Below the pieces are notes generated by a model. That model worked only from the letters and a program-made list of their open reading frames with translations, made no database searches and had not been told where the DNA came from. The position numbers and the translations under genes were made by a program. From Escherichia phage HK022, in the sequence record NC_002166.1: DNA of 40,751 bases. One strand, given 5' to 3'. Within the stretch, counting starts at the first letter, position 1; each line of letters begins with the position of its first letter. Shown here piece after piece: positions 19,030 to 40,413 of this stretch.

Positions 19030-20130
19030 ATGCTTTATAACACTGGAACCATCGCCATTAACGGAAACAGCGCCACCGGCACGGGCACGAACTGGACGGC
19101 ACCCGCCAGCCAGGTTCGCGCTGGCCAGACGATTATCGTGATGTCTAACCCGGTGCAGCTGTTTCAGATTTCATCCGTGAACAGCGCCACGTCAATGACG
19201 GTTACTCCAGCTGCTTCCCCGGCGCTGAGCGGCCAGAAGTATGGAATTCTTGTGTCGGACATTATCTCGGTTGATGGGCTGGCACAGGCCATGTCACAGC
19301 TCATCAAAGAGTACGACGAGAATATTGGCGCGTGGGAGACCTTCGCCAGCACCTCAGCAAACCAGCTGGTCACTGTGACAATCAACGGCACCAGCCTCAG
19401 CATTCCTGCCATCGGTGGTCTCGCCCGGAAAGGGGCAAATAGCGATATCACAGAGCTGAAAGGGCTAAGTACAGCATTGAGTGTTGCTCAGGGTGGGACA
19501 GGTGGCAAAAACGCTACGGACGCAGCAAATAATATTGGTGTTGGGCCTGCCAGTTATCCATTATTTTCTGGAGCGACCGTTTCGACAACAGGCTATGCAA
19601 TTCTCGGAGCGCAAAATACTTCGCGAGAAGCAACGGATGTTGGGGCACGCGTTCAGCTTGAAGCGTCTATTGCTGCAAACGCTCCCGCAGTAATCATACA
19701 AAGGAATAATCAGAATAATCAGACAGGACAAATACGCTCAGTACTGCCATCAACATCTGGCACACTTGCTGTGCAGGGAACATCAGGAAGAGACTATAAA
19801 AAGAACATTTCTCCTGCGAATCCAGAAGAGGCTTTAGGAAGAATACTTGCGCTTGAGCTTGTCAATTTTGTTTACAAGGATGATGAGAAGGATCGCCAGA
19901 GATTTGGGATTATTGCGGAAGACGCAGAAGTTATTGCTCCACAATATATTAAACACAACCAAGAACCGATTCCAGGAACGGAGGTTTTCAATGAAGATGG
20001 ACACAAGATAGGAGAGGAGTTCCGTGATCGCCCATCAGTAGACAATAATCCTATTGTGATGGACCTGATTGGGTGTATTCATGGGTTGCAAAGACAAATT
20101 ACCGATCTTAGACAGGAGCTTGTTGACTAA
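19030..20130 (+). CDS. tail fibre protein with C-terminal intramolecular chaperone-like domain
   Basis: 366 aa from ATG 19030 (GGAGAA RBS); the track's upstream start at 18985 would read through the terminator; C-terminal segment RFGIIAEDAEVIAPQYI resembles the self-cleaving chaperone domain of tail fibres and tailspikes. Confidence 0.7.
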   Translation: MLYNTGTIAINGNSATGTGTNWTAPASQVRAGQTIIVMSNPVQLFQISSVNSATSMTVTPAASPALSGQKYGILVSDIISVDGLAQAMSQLIKEYDENIGAWETFASTSANQLVTVTINGTSLSIPAIGGLARKGANSDITELKGLSTALSVAQGGTGGKNATDAANNIGVGPASYPLFSGATVSTTGYAILGAQNTSREATDVGARVQLEASIAANAPAVIIQRNNQNNQTGQIRSVLPSTSGTLAVQGTSGRDYKKNISPANPEEALGRILALELVNFVYKDDEKDRQRFGIIAEDAEVIAPQYIKHNQEPIPGTEVFNEDGHKIGEEFRDRPSVDNNPIVMDLIGCIHGLQRQITDLRQELVD

Positions 20131-20452
20131 AGCCTTTTAGTAAAATCTTGATTTCAGGAATCAAAACTTCCATTGGTTAGATAGGTTGGATTAGTGAAAA
20201 AACCGCAAATCCTAGACCGACAGAGCGAGGAACATTCACGGATTGTTTACAATATGCAATGCTGCAGTCACGCAATAATTAACGGGCTGCGGCAGCGGCC
20301 AGGTTGTTCATGCCCTGGCGAGTGCAGAAAGTATATAATTTAATAATGCGGTCACCACATGTTTTGCCCGATTTTGGTTGCCGTACTGATAGCCTCAGCC
20401 GGTTCTTTGAATAATCTTGCGGTAGCCAGACTCCAACTCCCACTCCTTTGAC

Positions 20453-20492
20453 AAAAAATTAGCGCAAGAAGACAAAAATCACCTTGCGCTAA
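20453..20492 (-). terminator. rho-independent terminator downstream of int (lambda tI/sib-like position)
   Basis: TTAGCGCAAG / CTTGCGCTAA 10-bp inverted repeat with 14-nt loop, followed on the minus strand by T6; about 230 nt beyond the int stop. Confidence 0.5.
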
Positions 20493-20501
20493 TGCTCTGT
20501 C

Positions 20502-20730
20502 TCAGGTCACTAATACTATCTAAGTAGTTGATTCATAGTGACTGGATATGTTGCGTTTTGTCGCATTATGTAGTCTATCATTTAACCACAGATTAGTGTA
20601 ATGCGATGATTTTTAAGTGATTAATGTTATTTTGTCATCCTTTAGGTGAATAAGTTGTATATTTAAAATCTCTTTAATTATCAGTAAATTAATGTAAGTA
20701 GGTCATTATTAGTCAAAATAAAATCATTTG
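20502..20730. other. attP region with lambda-type Int arm sites
   Basis: P-arm CAGGTCACTA (20503..20512) and inverted ATAGTGACTG (20535..20544); IHF-like site between them; P'-arm AGGTCATTAT / TAGTCAAAAT / AAATCATTTG at 20700..20730; spacing places the core near 20639..20653. Confidence 0.65.
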
Positions 20731-21797
20731 TCGATTTCAATTTTGTCCCATTCCCGTCCACGGCTGTCCCTATACCGCGCCGCCATTGAATCTGATTTAT
20801 GCCCGAGAAGACGTTGAGCAAACTTATCGCCAATCTGGTTCCGGTATAGCCTCGCTGACAGGCTACGCAGTTCATGGAATGTTGGCGGGTTTCCATCAAA
20901 TGAGAGTCCAGATGCATTTCTCGCCTTTGTAAAATACTTTGATACTGTTTTCGGGGAAAGCGGATCGTGATGCTTTGATGCGATTATAGTTTCACTGCTG
21001 CTGGCCTCCCTGCATTGCTGTAGTGTATCAGCCAATGAGATATTGAGCGCGTCAATCGTTAGCGTTAGTGGAATGGCGAGTTTAGCCCCTGTTTTACTCT
21101 GTTCAATGTGAAGATGGTTGTCGTTTATGTCTGACCATTTCATTCTGCACAAATCGCCTACTCTCTGCCCTGTAACGACAGCCAAATCCATTGCCAGTCT
21201 CAGCCAGATTGGGAGCGGTTCGGCTGCATGGTATATCGCGACATATTCATTAGCTGTCAGTCTTGAACGCCTTACTTCTGATTTTGCTGTGCGGGTTGCT
21301 GTTACCGGATTCGTAGCCACATGCCCCTCGGCTATTGCCTCACGAAAAACGTCAACAAGGGTTGACCTGATCAATTTTGCGGAAGCCGATTTGCCTTCTG
21401 CTACGTAGGTGTTTAGCATTGCTGCCACCTCTTTCGTTGATATGTCAGCGAGCGGTTTGTCCGGCAATTTTCTTCGGATTGCTCTGATTTTGCTGGCGTA
21501 GTCGAGTAGAGTTTTCGGCCTGATACCCCTCTCGCTGAGGATTGTTTCATATCGGTCAAGCCACGCATGAAGAGTGATTGCGTCAGCGCCTTTAATTCTG
21601 TCTATCAGTGACTCACGCCTGTTCCCGGATAGCAACTCAATGTTGGCCTGTATAGCTTCAGTGATTGCGATTCGCCTGTCTCGGCCTAATCCAAACTCTT
21701 TACCCGTCCTTGGGTCCCTGTAGCAGTAATATCCATTGTTTCTTATATAAAGGTTAGGGGGTAAATCCCGGCGCTCATGACTTCGCCTTCTTCCCAT
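20724..21797 (-). CDS. int: tyrosine integrase (lambda Int family)
   Basis: 357 aa; N-terminal arm-binding region and C-terminal catalytic region closely resemble lambda Int as recalled (e.g. HELRSLSARLY, LLGHKSD). Confidence 0.95.
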   Translation of the reverse strand: MGRRRSHERRDLPPNLYIRNNGYYCYRDPRTGKEFGLGRDRRIAITEAIQANIELLSGNRRESLIDRIKGADAITLHAWLDRYETILSERGIRPKTLLDYASKIRAIRRKLPDKPLADISTKEVAAMLNTYVAEGKSASAKLIRSTLVDVFREAIAEGHVATNPVTATRTAKSEVRRSRLTANEYVAIYHAAEPLPIWLRLAMDLAVVTGQRVGDLCRMKWSDINDNHLHIEQSKTGAKLAIPLTLTIDALNISLADTLQQCREASSSETIIASKHHDPLSPKTVSKYFTKARNASGLSFDGNPPTFHELRSLSARLYRNQIGDKFAQRLLGHKSDSMAARYRDSRGREWDKIEIDK

Positions 21798-26600: not shown

Positions 26601-27657
26601 GGCTTTGTTGAATAAATCAGATTTCGGGTAAGTCTCCCCCGTAGCGGGTTGTGTTTTCAGGCAATACGCACGCTTTCAGGCATACCTGCTTTCGTCATTT
26701 TGTTCAGCGCTCGTACCAGGGCCATAGCCTCTGCAACCTGACCATCGTAGTCACGCAGTGTCAGTGAACCCCCGAACAGCTGTTTTACCCGGTACATCGC
26801 CGTTTCCGCTATCGAGCGACGGTTGTAATCTGTTGTCCATTTCCACCGCGCATTACTCCCGGTCATTCGCTGATTAGCCACTGCACGGTTACGGTCTGCA
26901 TATTCACCGGGCCAGTAACCCGCACCTTTTCGGGGAGGGATAAGCGCGCTGATTTTCTTACGCCGCAGTTCATCGTGACATAGCCGGGTATCGTAAGCGC
27001 CATCGGCGGCGGCTGACCTGATTTTCCGGTGGGTTTGCCGGATTAACCCGGGGAAGGCCTCTGAGTCCGTAACGTTGTTCAGCGACAGGTCAGCGCAGAT
27101 GATTTCATGTGTTTTACTGTCAACGGCGAGATGCAGCTTACGCCAGATACGGCGGCGTTCCTGGCCATGCTTTTTGACTTTCCACTCGCCTTCACCGAAG
27201 ACCTTCAGCCCGGTGGAATCAATTACCAGGTGTGCGATTTCACCCCGGGTGGGCGTTTTGAAACTGACATTAACCGACTTTGCCCGCCTGCTGACACAGC
27301 TGTAATCCGGGCAGCGTAGCGGAACGTTCATCAGAGAAAAAATGGAATCAATAAAGCCCTGCGCAGCGCGCAGGGTCAGCCTGAATACGCGTTTAATGAC
27401 CAGCACAGTCGTGATGGCAAGGTCAGAATAGCGCTGAGGTCTGCCTCGTGAAGAAGGTGTTGCTGACTCATACCAGGCCTGAATAGCTTCATCATCCAGC
27501 CAGAAAGTTATGGAGCCACGGTTGATGAGGGCTTTATTGTAGGTGGGCCAGTTGGTGATTTTGAACTTTTGCTTTGCCACGGAACGGTCTGCGTTGTCGG
27601 GAAGATACGTGATCTGATCCTTCAACTCAGCAAAAGTTCGATTTATTCAACAAAGCC
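26601..27657 (-). mobile_element. IS903-like insertion sequence (IS5 family), 1057 bp
   Basis: Perfect 18-bp terminal inverted repeats GGCTTTGTTGAATAAATC (26601..26618 and 27640..27657); flanked by 9-bp direct repeat TTGGAATGA (26592..26600 and 27658..27666). Confidence 0.9.
26657..27580 (-). CDS. IS903-type transposase
   Basis: 307 aa from GTG at 27580 (track extends to a TTG at 27625); ends ...MTKAGMPESVRIA as in IS903 transposase. Confidence 0.85.
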   Translation of the reverse strand: MAKQKFKITNWPTYNKALINRGSITFWLDDEAIQAWYESATPSSRGRPQRYSDLAITTVLVIKRVFRLTLRAAQGFIDSIFSLMNVPLRCPDYSCVSRRAKSVNVSFKTPTRGEIAHLVIDSTGLKVFGEGEWKVKKHGQERRRIWRKLHLAVDSKTHEIICADLSLNNVTDSEAFPGLIRQTHRKIRSAAADGAYDTRLCHDELRRKKISALIPPRKGAGYWPGEYADRNRAVANQRMTGSNARWKWTTDYNRRSIAETAMYRVKQLFGGSLTLRDYDGQVAEAMALVRALNKMTKAGMPESVRIA

Positions 27658-27724
27658 TTGGAATGAATACACAGTGCAGTGTTTATTCTGTTGTTTGCGT
27701 GAAAATGAAACCCGCCTGAGCGGG

Positions 27725-28063
27725 TTATGACCACTTTTTGTTTGGGTTTCGCTGGTGAGCGTGATTAACAACTCTGTGCATTACATCCTCATATTTTTCA
27801 TCTTCAATTTTTTCGACATCGCGAGGAAATGGTGTTGCTAATGCTTTGTCAACTTTGTCCATTGGGTCTTCATTAATCTTATATTCAGGACCGTCATCTA
27901 TAGCATTAAATCCAGGTGTCACACCGTTTTTTAATGCATATGCTATCCTTTTTTCCCATCTCGCTATTCTCCTCCTGTCTCGAGATGTAAGACCTCTATC
28001 AGATACTTTTCTGTTTTGTCCGCTGTCAGGATTAACATAAATAGTCTTTTTCACCATAAGCAT
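27725..28063 (-). CDS. nun: Nun-like arginine-rich transcription termination factor (N-position protein)
   Basis: 112 aa from first ATG (track start 28069 is TTG); arginine-rich motif RKVSDRGLTSRDRRRIARWEKR; acidic centre; C-terminus ...NPNKKWS; no SD, as for N-like genes. Confidence 0.75.
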   Translation of the reverse strand: MLMVKKTIYVNPDSGQNRKVSDRGLTSRDRRRIARWEKRIAYALKNGVTPGFNAIDDGPEYKINEDPMDKVDKALATPFPRDVEKIEDEKYEDVMHRVVNHAHQRNPNKKWS

Positions 28064-28239
28064 ACCCAATAAGCACCGTACGGTAGTTTACTGTACAATT
28101 TTATTTTTTGGACTGCATGTATTTTGTTTCCTAATGGGTTTGAATCTTTGCAATAAATACTTCTATTTTTTCGAACGACTTCTATATCAAAAAGCTGCTT
28201 TGCTTTTTGTGACTAAAAGCAAAAAAGCCTTCTCGCTAA

Positions 28240-28310
28240 TGAGCAGCATTGCCGTTCATCCTGAACCCGCCGCGCTCCCGACGCATGGTTTAAAGACGCG
28301 CCGTTCGTCT
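28240..28310 (-). promoter_or_regulatory. putL-like cis-acting RNA element
   Basis: GC-rich segment immediately downstream of the predicted pL start, sharing sequence blocks with the element at 29460..29520. Confidence 0.5.
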
Positions 28311-28315
28311 ATGGG

Positions 28316-28344
28316 CTTATGATGTACTTAAAGTTCATTAATGT
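28316..28344 (-). promoter_or_regulatory. candidate pL promoter
   Basis: minus-strand TTGGTA (-35), 17-nt spacer, TATAAG (-10); flanked by operator-like repeats. Confidence 0.4.
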
Positions 28345-28421
28345 AAAGTACCAATAGTACATTTTATGGGTATAAAAAGCTCACTACATCATAAGTTAGT
28401 GAACTTTAAGGAAATTTATTT

Positions 28422-29129
28422 TTATCCGAATCGCTTGTAATCGATTGACTGCCTAATGAGGACTTTGGCTAGAATGTGAAGTTGCTCTTCTTCACCTTCT
28501 TCTATGTACCATCGATCATAAGCGGCATTGTCAGAGATGACGGCAAGCCTGTTCTTTTGCATTTGCAGGCGCTTAACGTGCATTGTTTTCCCGTATACAA
28601 ACACATAAATGCCATCGCCATCAAAACAGGTTATGGATACATCAACAAAGATCTCATCTCCCGGATTGATGGTTCCCTCCATGCTGTCACCGCGAACCGT
28701 GATGACTTTTACGCTTTCCTGTGGCCTTCCATTAAATAAAATTCTTGCCTGCTCGGTCGTATATTCAATTGCTCTTATCTTTTCTATAAATTCATTGGAA
28801 ACCATGGTTCCTGGCCCGGCGCTCGCCTGAACATCCAATACATCAACACGATAATAATCATTTGATCTTGATAGATGATTTACCGTGATACCGTCATCAT
28901 CAGCATAGCCATGCAGATATGCAGCAGTAGTTCCCAGCACCGAAGCCAGAGATTCCATCTTGTCTTTTCTTGGTATTGACTCCCCGTTGAACCATTTACT
29001 AATGGCTTTTGGTGTGACCTTAAGCCTGACAGCTAAATCAGCCTGCCTACCATGCAAAGGTAATCCCGCTTTATCACAGGCCAGCGCAAGCCTCTGCGAG
29101 AAAGTTTCACGCTCTTTCTGTTGAACCAT
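28422..29129 (-). CDS. cI: CI-type repressor (HTH + S24 LexA-like peptidase domain)
   Basis: 235 aa from ATG 29129; N-terminal HTH, Ala-Gly cleavage site (ASAGPG), catalytic Ser in GDSMEG and Lys in HVKRL; longer track ORF would overlap pR and cro. Confidence 0.85.
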   Translation of the reverse strand: MVQQKERETFSQRLALACDKAGLPLHGRQADLAVRLKVTPKAISKWFNGESIPRKDKMESLASVLGTTAAYLHGYADDDGITVNHLSRSNDYYRVDVLDVQASAGPGTMVSNEFIEKIRAIEYTTEQARILFNGRPQESVKVITVRGDSMEGTINPGDEIFVDVSITCFDGDGIYVFVYGKTMHVKRLQMQKNRLAVISDNAAYDRWYIEEGEEEQLHILAKVLIRQSIDYKRFG

Positions 29130-29889: not shown

Positions 29890-30036
29890 ATGACAAAACA
29901 ACTCAGTCCTTACCAGGACAAAATTCACAAACACATACTACGTGATCGCTTCCTGTCCAGCTTCAAGCAGCCTGGTCGATTCCGGGCTGAGTTGGAAAAA
30001 GTGAAGCTGATGCAGAAGGAGAAAGGTCATGAGTAA
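29890..30036 (+). CDS. hypothetical small protein (48 aa) between cII and the O-like gene
   Basis: GGAG 5 nt upstream of ATG 29890; stop overlaps the O-like start; basic protein; below track cut-off. Confidence 0.35.
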
Positions 30037-30928
30037 CATATCTAATCTAGCCGAAGCCAGAGAGGCCAGAAGGCTACAACAACCGCATCAAAGCAGCGGT
30101 AAGGGGTATGCCTTGCTGCACCGTAAAATTATGGATGTGCCGTTTTACAAGGATGCAGAAGCAGCGCATCTGTGGGTTCACTTAATCCTCAAAGCAAAGC
30201 ATACGCCTGAGTATGTAATGACTGACGCAGGAGAAATTCTGGTAGGTAGAGGGAAGCTACTTGGCGGTAGAAACTCTCTGGCGTTTGAAACAGGGCTCAA
30301 ACCAGATCGCGTTCAGTACCTGCTTAGAAAGTTCAAAAAACTCGGCATGATTGACTGGGTTTCACACGGTAAATTCTCAGTTTTCTCGGTAGAGAAATAT
30401 GACGATTATCAGTCAAATTTTGTACCAGCAGATTACCAGCAAATTACCACCTCAAAGCCAGCAATATCAATGTCTGTAAGCAATACTGTCCCAGCAGATT
30501 ACCAGCAAATTACCACAGATAAAGAATATAATAATATTATCTCTAATACTGACGTATTAGAGAGTGCCACAGCAGACAAAAAGTCTGACAAGAAAAAACC
30601 TTCCGTTAGCTGTCAGGATGTTGTCGATGCTTACCACGAAATCCTTCCTGAAGCGCCAAGAATCCGCGCACTGAATGACAAGCGTAAAAACCAGATCCGA
30701 ACGTTCTGGCGCAAAGCCGGAGTGATAACCCGCCAGCTTGACGGGCATGGGTTCACGATGCAGGACTGGAGAAATTATTTGAGCTACGTAGGCGAAAATT
30801 GCCGATGGATGTTCGAAGAGCGTCCAAACCATCAACGCGGAACCGTCTGGCACAAAAAGGGATTTGATTTCCTGCTTAACGATAATACCTACCTGAAAGT
30901 TCGTGAGGGTGAACACGATGACCGATAA
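30029..30928 (+). CDS. replication initiator (O-like / P22 gp18-like)
   Basis: 299 aa; contains the iteron array inside its coding sequence (repeated peptide [10 protein letters not shown]); followed by the helicase gene. Confidence 0.75.
30425..30516. repeat. candidate replication origin iterons
   Basis: Two perfect 26-nt direct repeats CCAGCAGATTACCAGCAAATTACCAC (30425..30450 and 30491..30516), each with two 11-nt sub-iterons, followed by an AT-rich stretch (30517..30545). Confidence 0.55.
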
Positions 30929-32354
30929 TTTTTATGCGCCGCCCCATAGCATCGAGGCAGAGCAGGCGGTGATTGGTGGATTGCTTCTGGATGATGACAG
31001 CAGTGAGCGCGTCCAGAAAGTCCTGGCGATGCTGAAGCCTGATTCATTTTACAGCCGACCACACAAAATCATTTTCGAAGAAATAACCAGAATGCACCGG
31101 GAGCAAAAGCCAGTAGATGGCCTGACGCTTTTCGATGAACTGGAGCGTAAATCGTTAACGGCGTCTGTTGGCGGTTTTGCTTATATCGCTGAGATCGCAA
31201 AGAACACGCCAAGCGCAGCAAACATCGTTGCCTATGCAATGCAGGTTCGAGAAACCGCAATGGAACGCTACGCCATCAACCGCATGACTGAAGCGACGGA
31301 ATTGCTCTATTCCCGCAACGGAATGACTGCAACGCAGAAGTACGAAGCTATTCAGTCGATTTTCACGCAACTGACAGACCATGCAAAAACCGGATCGCGT
31401 CGCGGCCTTCGTTCATTTGGTGAGGTCATGGAAGACTGGGTTAGCGACCTTGAGAAGCGATTTGACCCATCAGGCGAACAACGGGGAATGAGCACAGGGA
31501 TCCCATCGCTGGACAGGATGCTGTCACCGAAAGGTCTGGTGAAAGGCTCTCTGTTTGTCATTGGCGCTCGCCCTAAGATGGGTAAAACGACGCTATACAG
31601 CCAGATGGCAATCAACTGCGCAGTGCATGAGAAAAAGCCCGCTCTGATGTTCAGCCTTGAAATGCCCGGTGACCAGATACTGGAAAAACTGGTGGGACAG
31701 AAGTCAGGTGTTAACCCGAATATTTTTTACCTTCCGGCGACAAATGACGCTGATGACGGCTATCAGGGTGATTACGATGGTGACTTCAACAGGGCGATCG
31801 AAACAGCAAATCGCTTGAGTGAAATCGATATGCTTTACATCGACGACACGCCTGGATTATCTCTGGCACAAATCGTCAGCGAAAGCCGTCGAATCAAGCG
31901 AGAAAAAGGATGTGTTGGCATGATTCTGGTCGATTACCTGACACTAATGACCGCTGAGAAGGCCGATCGTAACGACCTTGCTTACGGCATGATCACCAAA
32001 GGATTGAAGAACCTTGCCAAAGAGCTTGATTGCGTTGTTGTGCTTCTGACACAGCTTAACCGCGCACTGGAAAGCCGAACCAATAAACGCCCATTACCAA
32101 GTGACTCGCGCGATACAGGGCAGATTGAACAGGATTGCGATTATTGGGTGGGGATCCATCGTGAAGGTGCTTTTGATGACAGTGTTCCACCTGGTGAAAC
32201 CGAACTAATCCTTCGTCTCAATCGTCATGGCAATACCGGCACGGTGTATTGCATTCAGGCAAATGGCGCTATTTATGACACAGACCAACAGTCTGCTGAA
32301 ATGCGCCGCCGTGAACGCGAGGAACCGCAATCCAAGAAGAAAGGAGGATTCTGA
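30918..32354 (+). CDS. replicative DNA helicase (DnaB family)
   Basis: 478 aa from ATG 30918 (GAGGG RBS); Walker A GARPKMGKTT and DnaB-like C-terminal domain. Confidence 0.9.
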   Translation: MTDNFYAPPHSIEAEQAVIGGLLLDDDSSERVQKVLAMLKPDSFYSRPHKIIFEEITRMHREQKPVDGLTLFDELERKSLTASVGGFAYIAEIAKNTPSAANIVAYAMQVRETAMERYAINRMTEATELLYSRNGMTATQKYEAIQSIFTQLTDHAKTGSRRGLRSFGEVMEDWVSDLEKRFDPSGEQRGMSTGIPSLDRMLSPKGLVKGSLFVIGARPKMGKTTLYSQMAINCAVHEKKPALMFSLEMPGDQILEKLVGQKSGVNPNIFYLPATNDADDGYQGDYDGDFNRAIETANRLSEIDMLYIDDTPGLSLAQIVSESRRIKREKGCVGMILVDYLTLMTAEKADRNDLAYGMITKGLKNLAKELDCVVVLLTQLNRALESRTNKRPLPSDSRDTGQIEQDCDYWVGIHREGAFDDSVPPGETELILRLNRHGNTGTVYCIQANGAIYDTDQQSAEMRRREREEPQSKKKGGF

Positions 32355-32435
32355 TGACCATCTACATCACTGAGCTAATAGCAGGGTTATCGTTACTAAT
32401 GGTTCTTACTGTATATATTATTAAGTATATTCTTT

Positions 32436-33047
32436 ATGCGAATAAAAAAACTAATTGATCACGATGAGCTTCTGTCAACATTATCATATGACTCAGAAAC
32501 AGGAATATTTAAATGGCTAAAAACAAATTCAGTAGTAAGAGTAAAAGGTAGTATTGCTGGAGGTGTTAGTGGTGGTTATATATGCATTAGCATAAATAAT
32601 GTTTTGTATTATGCGCATAGACTTGCTTGGTTCTATGTATACAAAAAATGGCCTCCTAAGTTTATTGATCATGTAAATGGGAACAGACTTGACAATAGGA
32701 TTTCAAATCTAAGACTGGCAACAGAAGAGCAGAATGCAAGAAACATTGTAGGGAATAGATTAAACACATCCGGTGCAATTGGAGTGTCTTGGTATAAGCC
32801 AACTGGCAGGTGGAAGTCTTATGTTGGTTATAAAAATAAGACAATATCGTTAGGGTATTTCGATAGCAAAGAAGATGCAGCATTCATAGCAGCACTAGCA
32901 AGAAAGAAACTATATGGAACTTATGCGAGTAAAGCACTTAATTGCGAGCATGAGCTTTTATCTCAATTTAATAATGATGAGGATAAACTTGCGGAATATC
33001 TTAAGGAAAAATCTAAAAGGACTCGAAAGCGTGTTAAAAACAGATAA
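32436..33047 (+). CDS. HNH endonuclease with AP2-like DNA-binding domain
   Basis: 203 aa; HNH core (HRLAW...IDHVNGNRLDNRISNLRLAT..EQN) plus AP2-like segment (GVSWYKPTGRWKSYVGYKNKTISLGYF); region markedly AT-rich. Confidence 0.7.
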   Translation: MRIKKLIDHDELLSTLSYDSETGIFKWLKTNSVVRVKGSIAGGVSGGYICISINNVLYYAHRLAWFYVYKKWPPKFIDHVNGNRLDNRISNLRLATEEQNARNIVGNRLNTSGAIGVSWYKPTGRWKSYVGYKNKTISLGYFDSKEDAAFIAALARKKLYGTYASKALNCEHELLSQFNNDEDKLAEYLKEKSKRTRKRVKNR

Positions 33048-33049
33048 AG

Positions 33050-33076
33050 GCCTGCTGGTAATCGCAGGCCTTTTTA
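33050..33076 (+). terminator. rho-independent terminator
   Basis: GGCCTGC-tggtaat-GCAGGCC hairpin plus T5. Confidence 0.65.
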
Positions 33077-33094
33077 TTTGGGGGAGAGTAAATC

Positions 33095-33301
33095 GTGGTT
33101 GAGTTGATTTTCTCTGCATTGAGGCTTCTCGGTGCTCTGTGGATGGTGGCGACGTTCATTGTGGTTGCTGGCTGTTTTGTCCGGTTGGTAGGCGAAGGTA
33201 AAGACCTGGTGGGTGTGCTTTTCGGTAGCATTTTCCTGTGGGTGATTATCGGTGTTATGCCTGTCGCTGTAGCCAAAATGGCGTGGCGTTTTGTGAGTTG
33301 A
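33095..33301 (+). CDS. small membrane protein (68 aa)
   Basis: GTG start with GGGGAGAG upstream; two hydrophobic helices. Confidence 0.4.
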   Translation: MVELIFSALRLLGALWMVATFIVVAGCFVRLVGEGKDLVGVLFGSIFLWVIIGVMPVAVAKMAWRFVS

Positions 33302-33318
33302 ACTGAGGGTAAGTATCG

Positions 33319-33636
33319 ATGGACGAATCAAGAAAGCAGTTTGAAGAAAGTTGGTTGCGACGTGGAGGCGAATCATCAGACCTTATCCGTTACCCTGAAA
33401 ATCACCATGAAATTGGCAGTGGTGATATTGGTGGTCAATACGTGATGGACGATGTTCAAGGCCACTGGCAAACGTGGCAGGCATCGCGAGCAGCTATCGA
33501 GATTGAGTGTCCTGGAGAAAGAGAGCGTGAGGCATTTTCTACCGATTTCGAGGATGGGGTCACATTTGGTTATAACAACGCAATTAGTGAATGCGAAGGA
33601 CGGATTCGCGCTGCTGGAGTCAAAGTGAAGGAGTGA
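33319..33636 (+). CDS. hypothetical protein (105 aa)
   Basis: ATG with GAGGGTAAG upstream; acidic. Confidence 0.5.
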   Translation: MDESRKQFEESWLRRGGESSDLIRYPENHHEIGSGDIGGQYVMDDVQGHWQTWQASRAAIEIECPGEREREAFSTDFEDGVTFGYNNAISECEGRIRAAGVKVKE

Positions 33637-33640
33637 GTAT

Positions 33641-33895
33641 ATGCCATTTATAAAATTAACCATGCAATGCAGCATCTATCAGCCACCAAGCACAGGCGTG
33701 ATAGAAAGCACCAGAAGTGCATATGAGCCCTTGTACGTTAACTCTGACAACATCGAAACCCTATTTGAGGCCGGGATTACGATTGTAAGAATGGCAAGTG
33801 GTGAGCGGTTCGATGTTATTGAGAAACCAGAAGCTATTTTGGCGTTAATTAATCCATGTGTGCAGAAGGTGAGCAATGAGGAAACTAACGTTTGA
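33641..33895 (+). CDS. hypothetical protein (84 aa)
   Basis: AAGGAG RBS upstream of ATG 33641. Confidence 0.45.
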   Translation: MPFIKLTMQCSIYQPPSTGVIESTRSAYEPLYVNSDNIETLFEAGITIVRMASGERFDVIEKPEAILALINPCVQKVSNEETNV

Positions 33896-34316
33896 ACTAA
33901 GAAGCCCCATCCATCAGCAGAACGCCATTCAAGCCATCCAGCAAATCCTTCCAGACCCAACAAAACCAATCGTAGTAACCATTCAGGAGCGCAACCGCAG
34001 CTTAGACCAAAATCGGAAGCTTTGGGCTTGCCTTGGTGACGTCTCTCGTCAGGTTGAATGGCATGGTCGCTGGCTGGATGCAGAAAGCTGGAAGTGTGTG
34101 TTTACCGCAGCATTAAAGCAGCAGGACGTTGTTCCTAACCTTGCCGGGAATGGCTTTGTGGTAATAGGCCAGTCAACCAGCAGGATGCGTGTAAGCGAAT
34201 TTGCGGAGCTATTAGAGCTTATACAGGCATTTGGTACAGAACATGGCGTTAAGTGGTCAGACGAAGCGCGACTGGCTCTGGAGTGGAAAGCGAGATGGGG
34301 AGACAGGGCGGCATGA
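33876..34316 (+). CDS. ninB: NinB (Orf-family recombination mediator)
   Basis: 146 aa; [15 protein letters not shown] motif as in lambda NinB. Confidence 0.85.
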
Positions 34317-34662: not shown

Positions 34663-35380
34663 GTTAATAAATGGCAATGCCATCAAAATGACAAGCATTG
34701 AAATCGCTGAGTTGGTAGAAAGCCGCCATAGCAATGTAAAAGTATCCATAGATAGATTGGTGAAACGTGGCGTTATCAAGCCTCCTGCATTGCAGCACAC
34801 TAACATAATCAATGATTTAGGTGTTATTACCGGGAAGCGTGATTTCTACGTCTTCGAGGGCGAACAAGGTAAGCGAGACAGCATTATTGTCGTCGCTCAG
34901 TTGTCGCCGGAATTCACCGCTCGTCTTGTTGACCGTTGGCGAGAGCTTGAAGAAGCTGCGGTTAATATCCCCAAAACGCTACCAGAAGCGTTGCGCCTTG
35001 CTGCTGACCTTGCTGAGCAGAAAATGCAACTGGAAAACCAGCTCGCAATTGCCGCACCTAAAGTTGAGTTTGCCGATCGCGTTGGCGAGGCCAGCGGAAT
35101 TTTGATTGGAAACTTTGCAAAGGTTGTCGGTATTGGTCCAAACAAACTGTTTGCGTGGATGCGTGATCACAAAATCCTTATTGCTTCAGGTTCCCGGCGC
35201 AATGTGCCAATGCAGGAATATATGGATCGCGGCTATTTCACAGTGAAAGAAACAGCGGTCAACACAAATCACGGAATACAGATATCGTTCACCACAAAAA
35301 TCACCGGGCGTGGTCAACAGTGGCTGACCAGAAAGTTGCTCGATAACGGAATGCTGAAAGTAACAGGGGAGGCTGCTTAA
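34655..35380 (+). CDS. Rha-family regulatory protein / antirepressor-like (Rha N-terminal + KilA-C-like domain)
   Basis: 241 aa; ATG overlaps ninF 3' end. Confidence 0.7.
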   Translation: MNELINGNAIKMTSIEIAELVESRHSNVKVSIDRLVKRGVIKPPALQHTNIINDLGVITGKRDFYVFEGEQGKRDSIIVVAQLSPEFTARLVDRWRELEEAAVNIPKTLPEALRLAADLAEQKMQLENQLAIAAPKVEFADRVGEASGILIGNFAKVVGIGPNKLFAWMRDHKILIASGSRRNVPMQEYMDRGYFTVKETAVNTNHGIQISFTTKITGRGQQWLTRKLLDNGMLKVTGEAA

Positions 35381-35670
35381 TGGCTAACCTACGCAAAGAA
35401 GCGCGCGGCAGAGAATGCCAGGTACGTATTTACGGCGTATGCAATGGTAATCCTGAAACTACAGTTCTGGCACATTACCGGATGGCTGGAATTTGCGGAA
35501 CGGGAATGAAGCCTGAAGACCTGATCGGTGCATGGGCTTGTAGTGACTGCCACGCGGAGATCGACCGACGCACCCATAATCTCGACAACAAAGACGCCAG
35601 ACTTTACCACCTCGAAGGCGTGATCAGGACGCAGGCGATACTGCTGAAGGAGGGGAAGATTAAGCCATGA
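35380..35670 (+). CDS. DUF1364-family zinc-binding protein (YbcO-like)
   Basis: 96 aa; Cys/His-rich (C..C...C..C.DCH); ATG overlaps upstream stop. Confidence 0.55.
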   Translation: MANLRKEARGRECQVRIYGVCNGNPETTVLAHYRMAGICGTGMKPEDLIGAWACSDCHAEIDRRTHNLDNKDARLYHLEGVIRTQAILLKEGKIKP

Positions 35671-39679: not shown

Positions 39680-40071
39680 CCATTACAAAGCTCATCTGCG
39701 GGTGGGCTTGATAATGAAACCGGAGTTAATTTCTGGTCACTAATTAACGGCAGCACCGCGAAACAACCCAAGCCAGAAAGTGGGGAAATAACACTGGCAG
39801 CCACTGAAAGATAAACCTCCTGCCTTATGGCAAAAAAGATTCTTTGTGGTGGCGGACTGATGGAAAGACATCGGTTATTGCAGAGGCCATTCAATGAGTG
39901 GTCTCGACAATGGCTTATACCCTACACGGGATAACTTAACTGATATCCCTTTTAACGGATAAACGGAGCCAACAATGGCAGAGATTATTCTCATGACTGA
40001 AGAACAGAAATTCCAGTTAGAGATTTACAAACTGGTCATGAACCAGAACGCCGCCGTGCATGGAGACTGGC

Positions 40072-40413
40072 ATGAACAAAGAGCCCCGCGTATATGGCAG
40101 CCGATGGGATAAGGCCCGTCTGCGTTTTCTCCAGCAGCACCCACTGTGTGTGATGTGCGAGCAGCAGGGGCGCATAACACCAGCAACGGTGGTCGACCAT
40201 ATCGTGCCCCACAAACTGAAAGATGCGCTTAAGTCAGGTAACCCTCTGGCCATATCGAAAGCACAGCTCCTGTTCTGGAGTAAAGAGAACTGGCAGCCAC
40301 TGTGCAAAGCGCATCATGACTCAACGAAACAGAGAATGGAGAAGAGCGGCGCGGTAATCGGTTGTGATGCCAACGGCTACCCGCTCGATCCTGCGTCTCA
40401 CTGGAGCACGTAA
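40072..40413 (+). CDS. HNH endonuclease (terminase-associated)
   Basis: 113 aa from ATG 40072 (GGAG 6 nt upstream); Cys/His motifs (C..C...DHIVPH...C..HH); sits immediately before the terminase genes on the circular map. Confidence 0.8.
   Translation: MNKEPRVYGSRWDKARLRFLQQHPLCVMCEQQGRITPATVVDHIVPHKLKDALKSGNPLAISKAQLLFWSKENWQPLCKAHHDSTKQRMEKSGAVIGCDANGYPLDPASHWST

What the first reader, a model, noticed from the sequence alone, without database searches (positions are those of the whole stretch)
32355..33076. AT-rich free-standing HNH-AP2 endonuclease between helicase and nin genes
GC content drops sharply across this 203-aa gene, which combines an HNH nuclease core with an AP2-type DNA-binding domain and has its own terminator. 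This is typical of a mobile homing endonuclease that has invaded the early-right operon.
Basis: partly seen in the sequence, partly recalled or inferred. Interest (0 to 1): 0.55.

Follow-up and report, generated by a model that had tools for sequence, protein, structure and literature searches.

The report
HNH-AP2 homing endonuclease cassette in tR2 boundary
An AT-rich 665-bp cassette carrying an intact HNH-AP2 endonuclease gene sits inside a short conserved junction sequence of a lambda-like phage; it looks like an ordinary selfish homing endonuclease gene of a class already described and already annotated in many E. coli phages.

Summary
ORF 32436..33047 (203 aa) lies in the lowest-GC stretch of the window (34% against 49.5%). 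It has a canonical HNH_3 nuclease core with the catalytic residues intact, followed by an AP2 DNA-binding domain.

Relatives show a precise empty site. HK75, Sf6, lambda, P22 and about 400 phage records carry an uninterrupted 81-bp "boundary sequence" (bsq6: the ninA mini-ORF plus terminator tR2) after the last replication gene. Here a ~665-bp cassette (32381..33045) splits it.

So the terminator at 33046..33073 is the resident tR2, not the gene's own. No promoter-like site was found on the gene's strand.

The same cassette, at least 97.5% identical, occupies exactly this site in 17 phage records, 126 of 5426 E. coli genomes and about 30 IMG/VR contigs. It is flanked there by 7 upstream and 8 downstream sequence classes. 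All 31 full-length copies are intact (pN/pS about 0.27).

This is the signature of a free-standing homing endonuclease gene, but cleavage and homing are untested. Passive exchange through the conserved arms is not excluded.

The AP2-HNH class is published and public records already name this gene an HNH or homing endonuclease. Low novelty, modest interest.

The parts
30903..32354 (+). DnaB-like replicative helicase, the last replication gene (context, not part of the insertion).
   Evidence: Pfam DnaB_C 2.7e-60 and DnaB 6e-32. phrog_19 6e-138.
32354..32380 (+). Left arm of lambdoid boundary sequence bsq6 (ATGACCATCTACATCACTGAGCTAATA). These are the first 9 codons of the 27-aa 'ninA' mini-ORF. 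Its ATG overlaps the helicase stop codon (TGATG).
   Evidence: Identical in HK75 (empty site) and in PA28, WGPS6 and F578 (occupied sites), despite unrelated upstream genes. Annotated 'bsq6; boundary sequence' in Sf6.
32354..32458 (+). 34-aa hydrophobic mini-ORF, a remodelled ninA: 9 resident codons plus 25 codons supplied by the cassette. It is preceded by a strong Shine-Dalgarno sequence (AAAGGAGGA) and overlaps the HNH start codon by 23 nt.
   Evidence: Read from the sequence. Weak match of aa 1-12 to phrog_5907. Whether it is translated is not known.
32381..33045 (+). Inserted AT-rich cassette of about 665 bp. The junctions are ambiguous by a few bases because of CAG/ATAA microhomology.
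   Evidence: Gap opposite HK75 in alignment A1. GC 0.340, the lowest in the window. 98-100% identical copies in 17 phage records and 126 E. coli genomes. No terminal inverted repeats or target-site duplication.
32436..33047 (+). HNH-AP2 endonuclease ORF, 203 aa.
   Evidence: ORF listing. Pfam and PHROGs matches. AlphaFold model with mean pLDDT 89.7. Intact in 31 of 31 full-length copies, pN/pS about 0.27.
32607..32741 (+). HNH_3 nuclease core (aa 58-102), with H61/R62, D78-H79, N87, N91, R93 and N100; N103 lies just beyond the Pfam-matched stretch.
   Evidence: Pfam HNH_3 8e-16. D78, H79, N87, N91, R93 and N103 are invariant in a 101-sequence alignment. D78/H79/N100 align with D74/H75/N96 of I-HmuI, PDB 1U3E. 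Foldseek gives 1u3e probability 0.99 over 109 columns.
32775..32918 (+). AP2-type DNA-binding domain (aa 114-161): a three-stranded sheet packed on a helix.
   Evidence: Pfam AP2 1.6e-6, but below the gathering score. Model strands 117-120, 125-132 and 135-142 plus helix 145-163. Superposes on Arabidopsis TEM1 AP2 at 1.0 A over 48 columns and on AtERF1 at 1.2 A over 51 columns.
33046..33088 (+). Right arm of bsq6. It holds the resident intrinsic terminator tR2 (stem-loop 33046..33073 plus T run) and ends in GGGGGAGAG.
   Evidence: Terminator scan. The same sequence is annotated as a terminator at the empty site in HK75 and as 'tR2, homology to phage lambda' in Sf6. Conserved in all occupied loci.
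33095..33301 (+). 68-aa membrane-like protein, the first nin-region gene in this phage (context).
   Evidence: phrog_1165 1e-35. Present directly after tR2 in HK75, which lacks the cassette.

Best explanation
A free-standing homing endonuclease gene of the AP2-HNH class sits inside the lambdoid boundary sequence bsq6. It lies between the start of the ninA mini-ORF and terminator tR2, at the junction of the replication and nin modules of an HK022-type phage.

Shown here:
- It is a roughly 665-bp AT-rich cassette that relatives lack precisely.
- It encodes an intact I-HmuI-like HNH_3 nuclease fused to an AP2 DNA-binding domain.
- The protein is under purifying selection.
- The cassette always occupies the same nucleotide position, whatever genes surround it.

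Inferred:
- The gene is transcribed early from pR, together with the replication genes. It lies upstream of tR2 and has no promoter of its own.
- Translation is probably weak, perhaps coupled to the upstream mini-ORF.
- In a cell that also holds a lambdoid genome with an uninterrupted bsq6 (a co-infecting phage or a resident prophage), the enzyme nicks or cuts at or near that sequence.
- Recombinational repair (Red/Orf/Rap or RecA) using the cassette-bearing genome as template then copies the cassette into the broken site.
- The GC-rich tR2 stem is a plausible docking site for the AP2 domain.
For: 1. Precise empty site. HK75 reads ...CTAATA|ACAGGCCTGC..., where the window carries 665 extra bases. 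Sf6 annotates those 81 bp as boundary sequence bsq6 with tR2.

2. Sporadic occupancy. bsq6 is found in 404 phage records and the cassette in 17. The surrounding region is found in 2012 E. coli genomes (2946 places) and the cassette in 126 genomes (138 places).

3. Same site, different backgrounds. In about 30 IMG/VR loci plus 3 Stx phages, the ATG-to-GGGGGAGAG unit is 731 bp in every locus where both junctions were found (732 in one). There are 7 upstream and 8 downstream flank classes. In 230 of 325 locus pairs both 600-bp flanks are unrelated, yet the cassette averages 98.9% identity.

4. Foreign composition. GC is 0.34 against 0.495, the lowest in the genome.

5. Protein family. HNH_3 8e-16 and phrog_99 7e-72. 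D78/H79/N100 align with I-HmuI D74/H75/N96, and the key residues are invariant across 101 homologues. The model has pLDDT 89.7 and matches I-HmuI and plant AP2 domains.

6. Maintained function. 31 of 31 copies are intact, with 9 synonymous and 9 non-synonymous variants (pN/pS about 0.27). None touches a catalytic residue.

7. Signs of the homing-gene life cycle. Some E. coli genomes hold split or 5'-truncated copies, and one metagenomic phage holds a chimeric copy.

8. Family behaviour. Homologues occur in 2347 phage records at 3589 places, often several per genome, and are commonly annotated as HNH homing endonucleases.

9. Literature. AP2-HNH is a described class of homing endonuclease genes (PMC1524935 and PMC10448857, both citing Magnani et al. 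2004). Phage nuclease genes are reported to sit at boundaries of genetic exchange (PMC10448857).
Against: - No cleavage or homing has been shown for this protein, and the target site is only guessed from the insertion point.
- Free-standing phage homing endonucleases often cut at a distance from their own insertion site.
- The cassette is flanked by two conserved arms (27 nt and about 43 nt) of a sequence already regarded as a lambdoid recombination hot spot. Ordinary homologous recombination could therefore produce the same pattern without any nuclease activity.
- The flank matches far outnumber the cassette copies across E. coli genomes (2946 against 138 places), which suggests that empty bsq6 sites coexist with the cassette in the same polylysogenic genomes, so conversion is at best conditional; the coexistence itself was not counted genome by genome.
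- There is no Shine-Dalgarno sequence before the HNH ATG.
- The AP2 match is below Pfam's gathering score.
Confidence: 0.6

Rival explanations
1. Passive mosaic module. The cassette entered bsq6 once by illegitimate recombination from an AT-rich donor. It has since been passed among lambdoid phages only by ordinary Red- or RecA-mediated recombination through the conserved arms of the boundary sequence. The nuclease serves some other purpose, such as attacking competing phages or host DNA, or stimulating recombination generally. It does not cut its own empty site.
For: - Both arms of bsq6 are conserved in all occupied and empty sites, and bsq6 is annotated as a module boundary.
- Flank classes are shuffled on both sides independently. 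This is what recombination at either arm would give.
- Empty and occupied sites appear to coexist within E. coli genomes, judging from the aggregate counts.
- Lambda Red is reported to recombine diverged lambdoid sequences efficiently (PMC2327257).
Against: - The left arm is only 27 nt, which is marginal for efficient homologous exchange unless a nearby break stimulates it.
- The cassette is far more uniform (at least 97.5% identical) than the backgrounds it sits in, with no relatives between 60% and 95% identity. This argues for a recent, efficient spread.
- The protein family is the one typical of homing endonucleases.
Confidence: 0.27
2. Domesticated protein. The HNH-AP2 protein now works for the phage, as a DNA-binding regulator or as a nicking enzyme that helps replication or recombination at the replication/nin junction. 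It no longer moves as a selfish element.
For: - Purifying selection, with all copies intact.
- Co-transcribed with the replication genes and positioned before the recombination genes ninB/orf.
- AP2 domains elsewhere act as sequence-specific regulators (PMC10448857 discussion).
Against: - Only about 4-5% of lambdoid phages with the site carry it, so it is dispensable.
- The closest relatives of this phage, mEp235 and HK75, lack it.
- The catalytic residues are retained.
Confidence: 0.08
3. Decaying relic. A dead homing endonuclease gene with no activity, carried along as a hitch-hiker.
For: - A few E. coli copies are split or truncated.
- There is no obvious ribosome-binding site.
Against: - 31 of 31 full-length copies have an open reading frame and pN/pS is about 0.27.
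- All invariant family residues are present.
- The structure model is confident.
Confidence: 0.04
4. Packaging-associated HNH protein, of the kind that assists terminase at cos (HK97 gp74 type).
For: It belongs to the HNH superfamily, and this is an HK97-like phage.
Against: - The window has a separate gp74-like HNH ORF at 40060..40413, next to the genome end.
- The gene studied here lies about 7 kb away in the early operon, has a different domain architecture (HNH_3 plus AP2), and is absent from the closest relatives.
Confidence: 0.01

Closest known systems
AP2-HNH homing endonuclease genes (class defined by Magnani, Sjolander and Hake 2004; examples include phage RB49 ORF040c and the 'IPA-HNH' genes of ICP1-like vibriophages)
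   Same: An N-terminal HNH nuclease followed by a C-terminal AP2 DNA-binding domain. The genes are free-standing, variably present among related phages, and lie at boundaries of genetic exchange (PMC1524935, PMC10448857).
   Different: This one sits in temperate lambdoid phages and prophages, at one fixed intergenic site (bsq6/tR2). It has a canonical Pfam HNH_3 core, whereas the ICP1 IPA-HNH genes escape that profile. It also carries a basic helical tail of about 35 aa (aa 165-203) that most homologues lack.
I-HmuI (Bacillus phage SPO1, PDB 1U3E)
   Same: The HNH core has an aligned D-H...N catalytic set (D78/H79/N100 against D74/H75/N96). The N-terminal beta-sheet region before the core is also similar.
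   Different: I-HmuI is encoded inside a group I intron and uses a C-terminal helix-turn-helix instead of AP2. It is a strand-specific nickase (from my own knowledge). Identity is only about 19%.
Free-standing T4 HNH homing endonuclease MobE
   Same: An intergenic, intron-less HNH gene thought to spread by cutting genomes that lack it, followed by recombinational repair (PMC2790892).
   Different: MobE has no AP2 domain. It occurs in a lytic T-even phage, and its target lies in a neighbouring essential gene rather than in a terminator-containing boundary sequence.
Lambdoid 'morons'
   Same: A compositionally foreign extra gene inserted between two conserved genes of a lambdoid phage (PMC1524935 discussion, PMC3594210).
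   Different: Morons are defined as independent transcription units with their own promoter and terminator. Here no promoter-like site was found on the gene's strand, and the terminator is the resident tR2.
Identical gene in public records (e.g. Escherichia phage PA28 gp34, Stx2 phages 1717 and WGPS6, many E. coli prophages)
   Same: 98-100% nucleotide identity and the same insertion site. Already named 'HNH endonuclease' or 'homing endonuclease'.
   Different: The flanking genes differ: ren, other helicases, other nin genes. None of the annotated phage records holds this exact combination of helicase, cassette and 68-aa gene. A few E. coli prophages do.

Membership tests
HNH_3 endonuclease (Pfam PF13392; I-HmuI-like) | Profile match above the curated cut-off | tested here: met
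   57.8 bits against a cut-off of 24.8, E=8e-16, aa 58-102, full profile length.
HNH_3 endonuclease (Pfam PF13392; I-HmuI-like) | Catalytic beta-beta-alpha-metal residues present (Asp-His general base pair, metal-binding Asn) | tested here: met
   D78-H79 and N100 align with I-HmuI D74-H75 and N96. D78, H79, N87, N91, R93 and N103 are invariant in 101 homologues. The roles of the I-HmuI residues are from my own knowledge.
HNH_3 endonuclease (Pfam PF13392; I-HmuI-like) | Fold similarity to a solved member | tested here: met
   Foldseek hit to 1u3e_M with probability 0.99 over 109 columns, though the E-value is a modest 0.029. The model has pLDDT 89.7.
HNH_3 endonuclease (Pfam PF13392; I-HmuI-like) | Metal-dependent DNA nicking or cleavage | not testable with these tools
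   Needs purified protein.
AP2 DNA-binding domain (Pfam PF00847) | Profile match above the curated cut-off | tested here: not met
   28.7 bits, below the cut-off of 33.3, although E=1.6e-6. Many homologues do carry a precomputed PF00847 hit.
AP2 DNA-binding domain (Pfam PF00847) | Three-stranded antiparallel sheet packed against a helix, superposable on solved AP2 domains | tested here: met
   Strands 117-120, 125-132 and 135-142 plus helix 145-163. TEM1 AP2 (7et5) at rmsd 1.0 A over 48 columns, probability 1.00. AtERF1 (1gcc) at rmsd 1.2 A over 51 columns.
Free-standing homing endonuclease gene | Present or absent among close relatives, with a precise empty site | tested here: met
   HK75, mEp235, HK620, Sf6, lambda and P22 carry an uninterrupted bsq6. 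Occupancy is about 4-5%.
Free-standing homing endonuclease gene | Near-identical gene at the same site in otherwise unrelated genomic backgrounds | tested here: met
   7 upstream and 8 downstream flank classes. In 230 of 325 pairs both flanks are unrelated while the cassette is 98.9% identical.
Free-standing homing endonuclease gene | Enzyme cleaves the allele lacking the gene, at or near the insertion site | not testable with these tools
   No biochemical data were found for this protein.
Free-standing homing endonuclease gene | Nuclease-dependent over-transmission with co-conversion of flanking markers | not testable with these tools
   Requires phage crosses. Sequence similarity ends at the bsq6 arms, so co-conversion tracts cannot be read from these data.
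Moron (independent lambdoid transcription unit) | Own promoter and own terminator flanking the inserted gene | tested here: not met
   No promoter-like site on the + strand in 32000-33500. The terminator is the resident tR2, present at empty sites.
Insertion sequence / transposon | Terminal inverted repeats and target-site duplication | tested here: not met
   No repeats at the cassette ends. The only perfect inverted repeat is the tR2 hairpin. No transposase domain was found.

The most novel reading that the evidence does not exclude
The endonuclease recognises the lambdoid boundary sequence bsq6 itself, with the AP2 domain docking on the GC-rich tR2 stem. bsq6 is one of the most conserved non-coding junctions of lambdoid phages and is present in about 37% of complete E. 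coli genomes. On this reading, the breaks the enzyme makes would spread the cassette and would also actively drive module exchange between replication and nin regions. That would give a nuclease-based cause for one of the classic lambdoid mosaic junctions. A side possibility is that the cassette preserves a translated hydrophobic mini-ORF (ninA) and uses it for translational coupling.
Probability: 0.35. Interest if true: 0.45.

Novelty: already known. Interest (0 to 1): 0.25.

Why it matters
As it stands, this is a tidy textbook case. It shows a selfish nuclease gene wedged into a conserved terminator-containing junction of temperate phages, including Shiga-toxin phages.

Its practical value is threefold:
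- It corrects the anatomy. The terminator belongs to the phage, and the true insertion is 32381..33045.
- It defines a candidate 81-bp homing site that could be tested directly.
- If the enzyme does cut bsq6, it would link homing endonucleases to a known lambdoid recombination hot spot. This idea is already established for other phage groups (PMC10448857).

Tried and rejected
1. Own terminator or moron unit. Rejected: the hairpin is the resident tR2, present at empty sites, and there is no + strand promoter-like site.

2. Transposon or insertion sequence. Rejected: no terminal inverted repeats or target duplication.

3. Internal duplication. A 43-nt imperfect direct repeat links the ORF start (32434-32471) to the start of the C-terminal tail (32921-32957). 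This suggested that the tail arose by partial duplication. It is not significant: 59 of 2000 shuffles score as well, other cassette pieces score nearly the same, and the protein-level test gives 64 of 2000.

4. Defence-system membership. PADLOC gave only a weak 'homing endonuclease' hit (E=7.6e-4).

5. NCBIfam gave nothing for the HNH protein, the mini-ORF or the 68-aa neighbour.

6. Literature on this specific gene. Searches for HK022, Stx phage or lambdoid together with HNH or homing found no experimental work on it. Magnani et al. 2004 (PMC520932) is not held, and Juhala et al. 2000 was not available to read, so I could not check how the original HK022 paper described the gene.

7. Other insertions at the same site. 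The extra 270-bp gene in Stx2-86 and F578 lies before bsq6, not inside it. HK97 has a variant bsq6 with a different hairpin and no insertion.

Full report
**What is there.** The window is a complete HK97/HK022-type lambdoid phage genome.
- Its nearest annotated relatives are mEp235, HK75, HK106 and HK97.
- The length (40751 bp) and a Nun-type arginine-rich motif (SRDRRRIARWEKRIAYALKNGV) on the minus strand near 28 kb match what I remember of phage HK022. That identification rests on memory and was not confirmed against a record.
- Gene order around the finding is: O-like replication protein (30029..30928), DnaB-like helicase (30903..32354), the 203-aa ORF (32436..33047), a 68-aa membrane-like protein (33095..33301), two small ORFs, then NinB (33876..34316).

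**Checking the observation.**
- GC falls from about 0.49 to 0.31-0.37 across the ORF and recovers right after it.
- The 665 bases at 32381..33045 have GC 0.340 and the ORF has GC3 0.245. This is the lowest-GC stretch of that length in the genome, about 3.4 sd below the mean; only 0.08% of windows are as low.
- The protein matches Pfam HNH_3 over the full profile (E=8e-16) and AP2 at E=1.6e-6. The AP2 score of 28.7 bits is below Pfam's gathering score of 33.3. PHROGs places the protein in phrog_99, 'HNH endonuclease', at 7e-72.
- A hairpin followed by a T run lies at 33046..33073.
- So the composition, the ORF, the domains and the physical presence of a terminator are all confirmed.

**The protein.**
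- An alignment of 101 homologues at 37-60% identity shows Y18, G23, R62, A64, W65, D78, H79, N87, N91, R93, N103, G140 and A148 invariant.
- A sequence search of the PDB aligns residues 58-115 with I-HmuI (1U3E). This puts D78-H79 on D74-H75 and N100 on N96. To my knowledge these are the metal-ligand, general-base and metal-ligand residues of I-HmuI.
- An AlphaFold2 model built on that alignment is confident (mean pLDDT 89.7, pTM 0.76). It shows an N-terminal beta-sheet region, the beta-beta-alpha core, then three strands and a long helix, and finally two less confident helices in a basic tail.
- Foldseek against the PDB returns plant AP2 domains: TEM1 at rmsd 1.0 A over 48 columns and AtERF1 at 1.2 A over 51 columns, both with probability 1.00. 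It also returns I-HmuI (probability 0.99, 109 columns).
- The AP2 assignment therefore fails Pfam's sequence threshold but is met structurally.

**The insertion and its site.**
- Megablast of 31800-33700 against the phage collection found no record covering 80% of the query.
- Many relatives (HK75, mEp235, HK629, HK630, HK620) match the helicase end and the 68-aa gene in two pieces, with about 665 bp missing between them. A set of Stx phages matches only the middle part at 99-99.5%.
- Aligning the window with HK75, PA28, WGPS6 and F578 gives the exact anatomy. HK75 reads TGATGACCATCTACATCACTGAGCTAATA|ACAGGCCTGCTGGTAATCGCAGGCCTTTTTATTTGGGGGAGAG. The window has 665 additional bases at the bar.
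- The junction is ambiguous by a few bases (GCAGG/ACAGG on the left, ATAA on the right).
- In Sf6 the uninterrupted 81 bp are annotated as 'bsq6; boundary sequence'. They contain 'tR2, homology to phage lambda' and a 27-aa gene 45 'similar to phage 21 NinA'. HK75 also annotates the hairpin as a terminator.
The cassette is wedged between codon 9 of the ninA mini-ORF and the tR2 stem.
- No promoter-like site is predicted on the + strand, and there are no terminal inverted repeats or target duplications. The gene is a passenger of the pR early-right transcript and lies just before tR2.

**Distribution.**
- The boundary sequence occurs in 404 phage records, including lambda, P22, H-19B, Sf6 and many Stx phages. 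The cassette occurs in 17 of them, all Stx or EHEC phages at 98.8-99.4% identity. No DNA relatives fall between 82% and 98%, apart from three short hits of about 65 nt in unrelated phages.
- In 5426 complete E. coli genomes, the flanking region matches in 2012 genomes (2946 places) and the cassette in 126 genomes (138 places). Identity is always at least 95%. PGAP names the gene 'HNH endonuclease'. A few copies are split into 'AP2 domain-containing protein' plus an HNH fragment, or are 5'-truncated.
- About ten E. coli prophages carry the same helicase plus cassette as the window.
- IMG/VR gave 30 further loci. Wherever both junctions could be found, the distance from the ninA ATG to GGGGGAGAG is 731 bp (732 in one locus).
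- The 300 bp upstream fall into 7 unrelated classes and the 300 bp downstream into 8, in many combinations.
- Of 325 pairs among 26 loci with long flanks, 230 have both 600-bp flanks unrelated, yet the cassette unit averages 98.9% identity (minimum 97.5%). Where the flanks are homologous they are less similar than the cassette: 98.2% against 99.2% upstream and 95.4% against 99.6% downstream.
- At the protein level the family is very large: 1607 hits in the metagenomic protein collection and 2347 phage records with 3589 places. It is often present in several copies per genome and is widely annotated as HNH homing endonuclease.
- There is a gap between the lambdoid clone (at least 98% identical) and everything else (62% or less).
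- The 62% hit, P0004, is a chimera in a metagenomic lambdoid phage. Its first 279 nt, starting at the ninA ATG, are identical to this cassette. The rest is a different, higher-GC HNH-AP2 gene that abuts rusA with no tR2. This shows recombination between family members in the nin region.

**Is the gene functional?** All 31 full-length copies in hand have an open frame. They form 10 alleles with 9 synonymous and 9 non-synonymous variant codons. This gives pN/pS of about 0.27, and no change touches an invariant residue. The numbers are small, but they point to purifying selection rather than decay.

**Mechanism.** The pattern is the standard signature of a free-standing homing endonuclease gene. 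It consists of:
- foreign composition;
- a precise empty site;
- about 4-5% occupancy;
- a nearly clonal sequence at one nucleotide position in many unrelated backgrounds;
- an intact nuclease under selection;
- occasional degraded and chimeric copies.

This fits the published AP2-HNH class (PMC1524935 and PMC10448857, both citing Magnani et al. 2004). It also fits the observation that phage nuclease genes occupy boundaries of genetic exchange (PMC10448857).

I therefore favour active homing, with confidence 0.6. The proposed sequence of events is:
1. Early expression from pR.
2. A nick or cut in or near the uninterrupted bsq6 of a co-resident lambdoid genome.
3. Repair from the cassette-bearing copy by Red/Orf/Rap or RecA.

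The steps after 'intact nuclease' are inference. The main rival, at 0.27, is that the cassette is exchanged passively through the 27-nt and roughly 43-nt arms of a sequence already regarded as a lambdoid recombination hot spot. On that view the nuclease does something else. The data here cannot separate the two, because similarity between backgrounds ends exactly at the arms and no co-conversion tracts can be read.

**Side observations on expression.**
- The ninA ATG at 32354 overlaps the helicase stop (TGATG) and has a strong Shine-Dalgarno sequence (AAAGGAGGA). SD-like sequences also precede it in the other backgrounds.
- After the insertion, this ORF continues for 25 cassette-encoded codons as a hydrophobic 34-aa peptide. 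It ends 20 nt beyond the HNH ATG, which itself lacks a Shine-Dalgarno sequence.
- Translational coupling, giving low HNH expression, is plausible but untested.
- The hydrophobic character of both versions of the peptide may simply reflect the hairpin and T run in empty sites and the AT-richness of the cassette. HK97's variant hairpin gives a similar peptide.

**Novelty and verdict.** The gene is already annotated as an HNH or homing endonuclease in many public records. The domain class has been described since 2004. The idea of nuclease genes at exchange boundaries is also published.

What this analysis adds:
- the corrected anatomy, with tR2 as a resident feature and the insertion placed inside bsq6;
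- occupancy figures;
- a concrete candidate homing site.

Interest is low to moderate (0.25). It would rise somewhat if the enzyme were shown to cut bsq6 and so to promote lambdoid module exchange.

Noticed in passing
window 32354..32458 (+): A 34-aa hydrophobic mini-ORF (MTIYITELIAGLSLLMVLTVYIIKYILYANKKTN). Its first 9 codons are the conserved 'ninA' start of empty sites. It has a strong Shine-Dalgarno sequence, is coupled to the helicase stop codon, and overlaps the HNH start codon, which has no Shine-Dalgarno sequence. The HNH gene may be translated by coupling to it.
   Followed up: partly
window 35380..35670 (+) and 40060..40413 (+): Two further HNH-type genes in the same genome. One is a 96-aa DUF1364-type nin-region protein, which HK75's RefSeq record names 'HNH endonuclease'. 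The other is a 117-aa HK97 gp74-like HNH protein next to the right genome end, presumably the packaging-associated one.
   Followed up: no
window 27500..28750 and 20015..21150: Two other low-GC islands (minima 0.37 and 0.38). The first contains a Nun-type arginine-rich motif on the minus strand. The second spans the gap between the tail-fibre gene end and the integrase gene, which is probably the attP region.
   Followed up: partly
window 33641..33895 (+): An 84-aa ORF matching the flagellar FlbD family (Pfam 9.7e-6, just above the cut-off; phrog_8458 5e-40). This is an odd passenger in the nin region and is shared with Sf6 gene 49.
   Followed up: no
L008 4919..5516: A metagenomic lambdoid phage with a chimeric HNH gene. 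Its first 279 nt (ninA start plus the 5' part of the cassette) are identical to the window. The rest comes from a different, higher-GC HNH-AP2 gene that runs straight into rusA, with no tR2.
   Followed up: partly
L039 660..745 (HK97): HK97 has the same 27-nt left arm, followed by a different hairpin (GGGCTATTTACACAGTAGCCC plus a T run). The region is still annotated as a small ORF (gp56). This is a second allele of the boundary sequence, and none of the occupied sites examined carries it.
   Followed up: partly
window 32914..33102 (+): A 62-aa ORF in another frame overlaps the 3' end of the HNH gene. It runs in frame into the old ninA C-terminus (…GLLVIAGLFIWGRVNRG). This is probably chance.
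   Followed up: no
window 32930..33044 (aa 165-203 of the HNH protein): A basic, helical C-terminal tail of about 35 aa (…KSKRTRKRVKNR). Most homologues lack it: they are 160-175 aa long and cover about 80% of the query. It is modelled with lower confidence.
   Followed up: no
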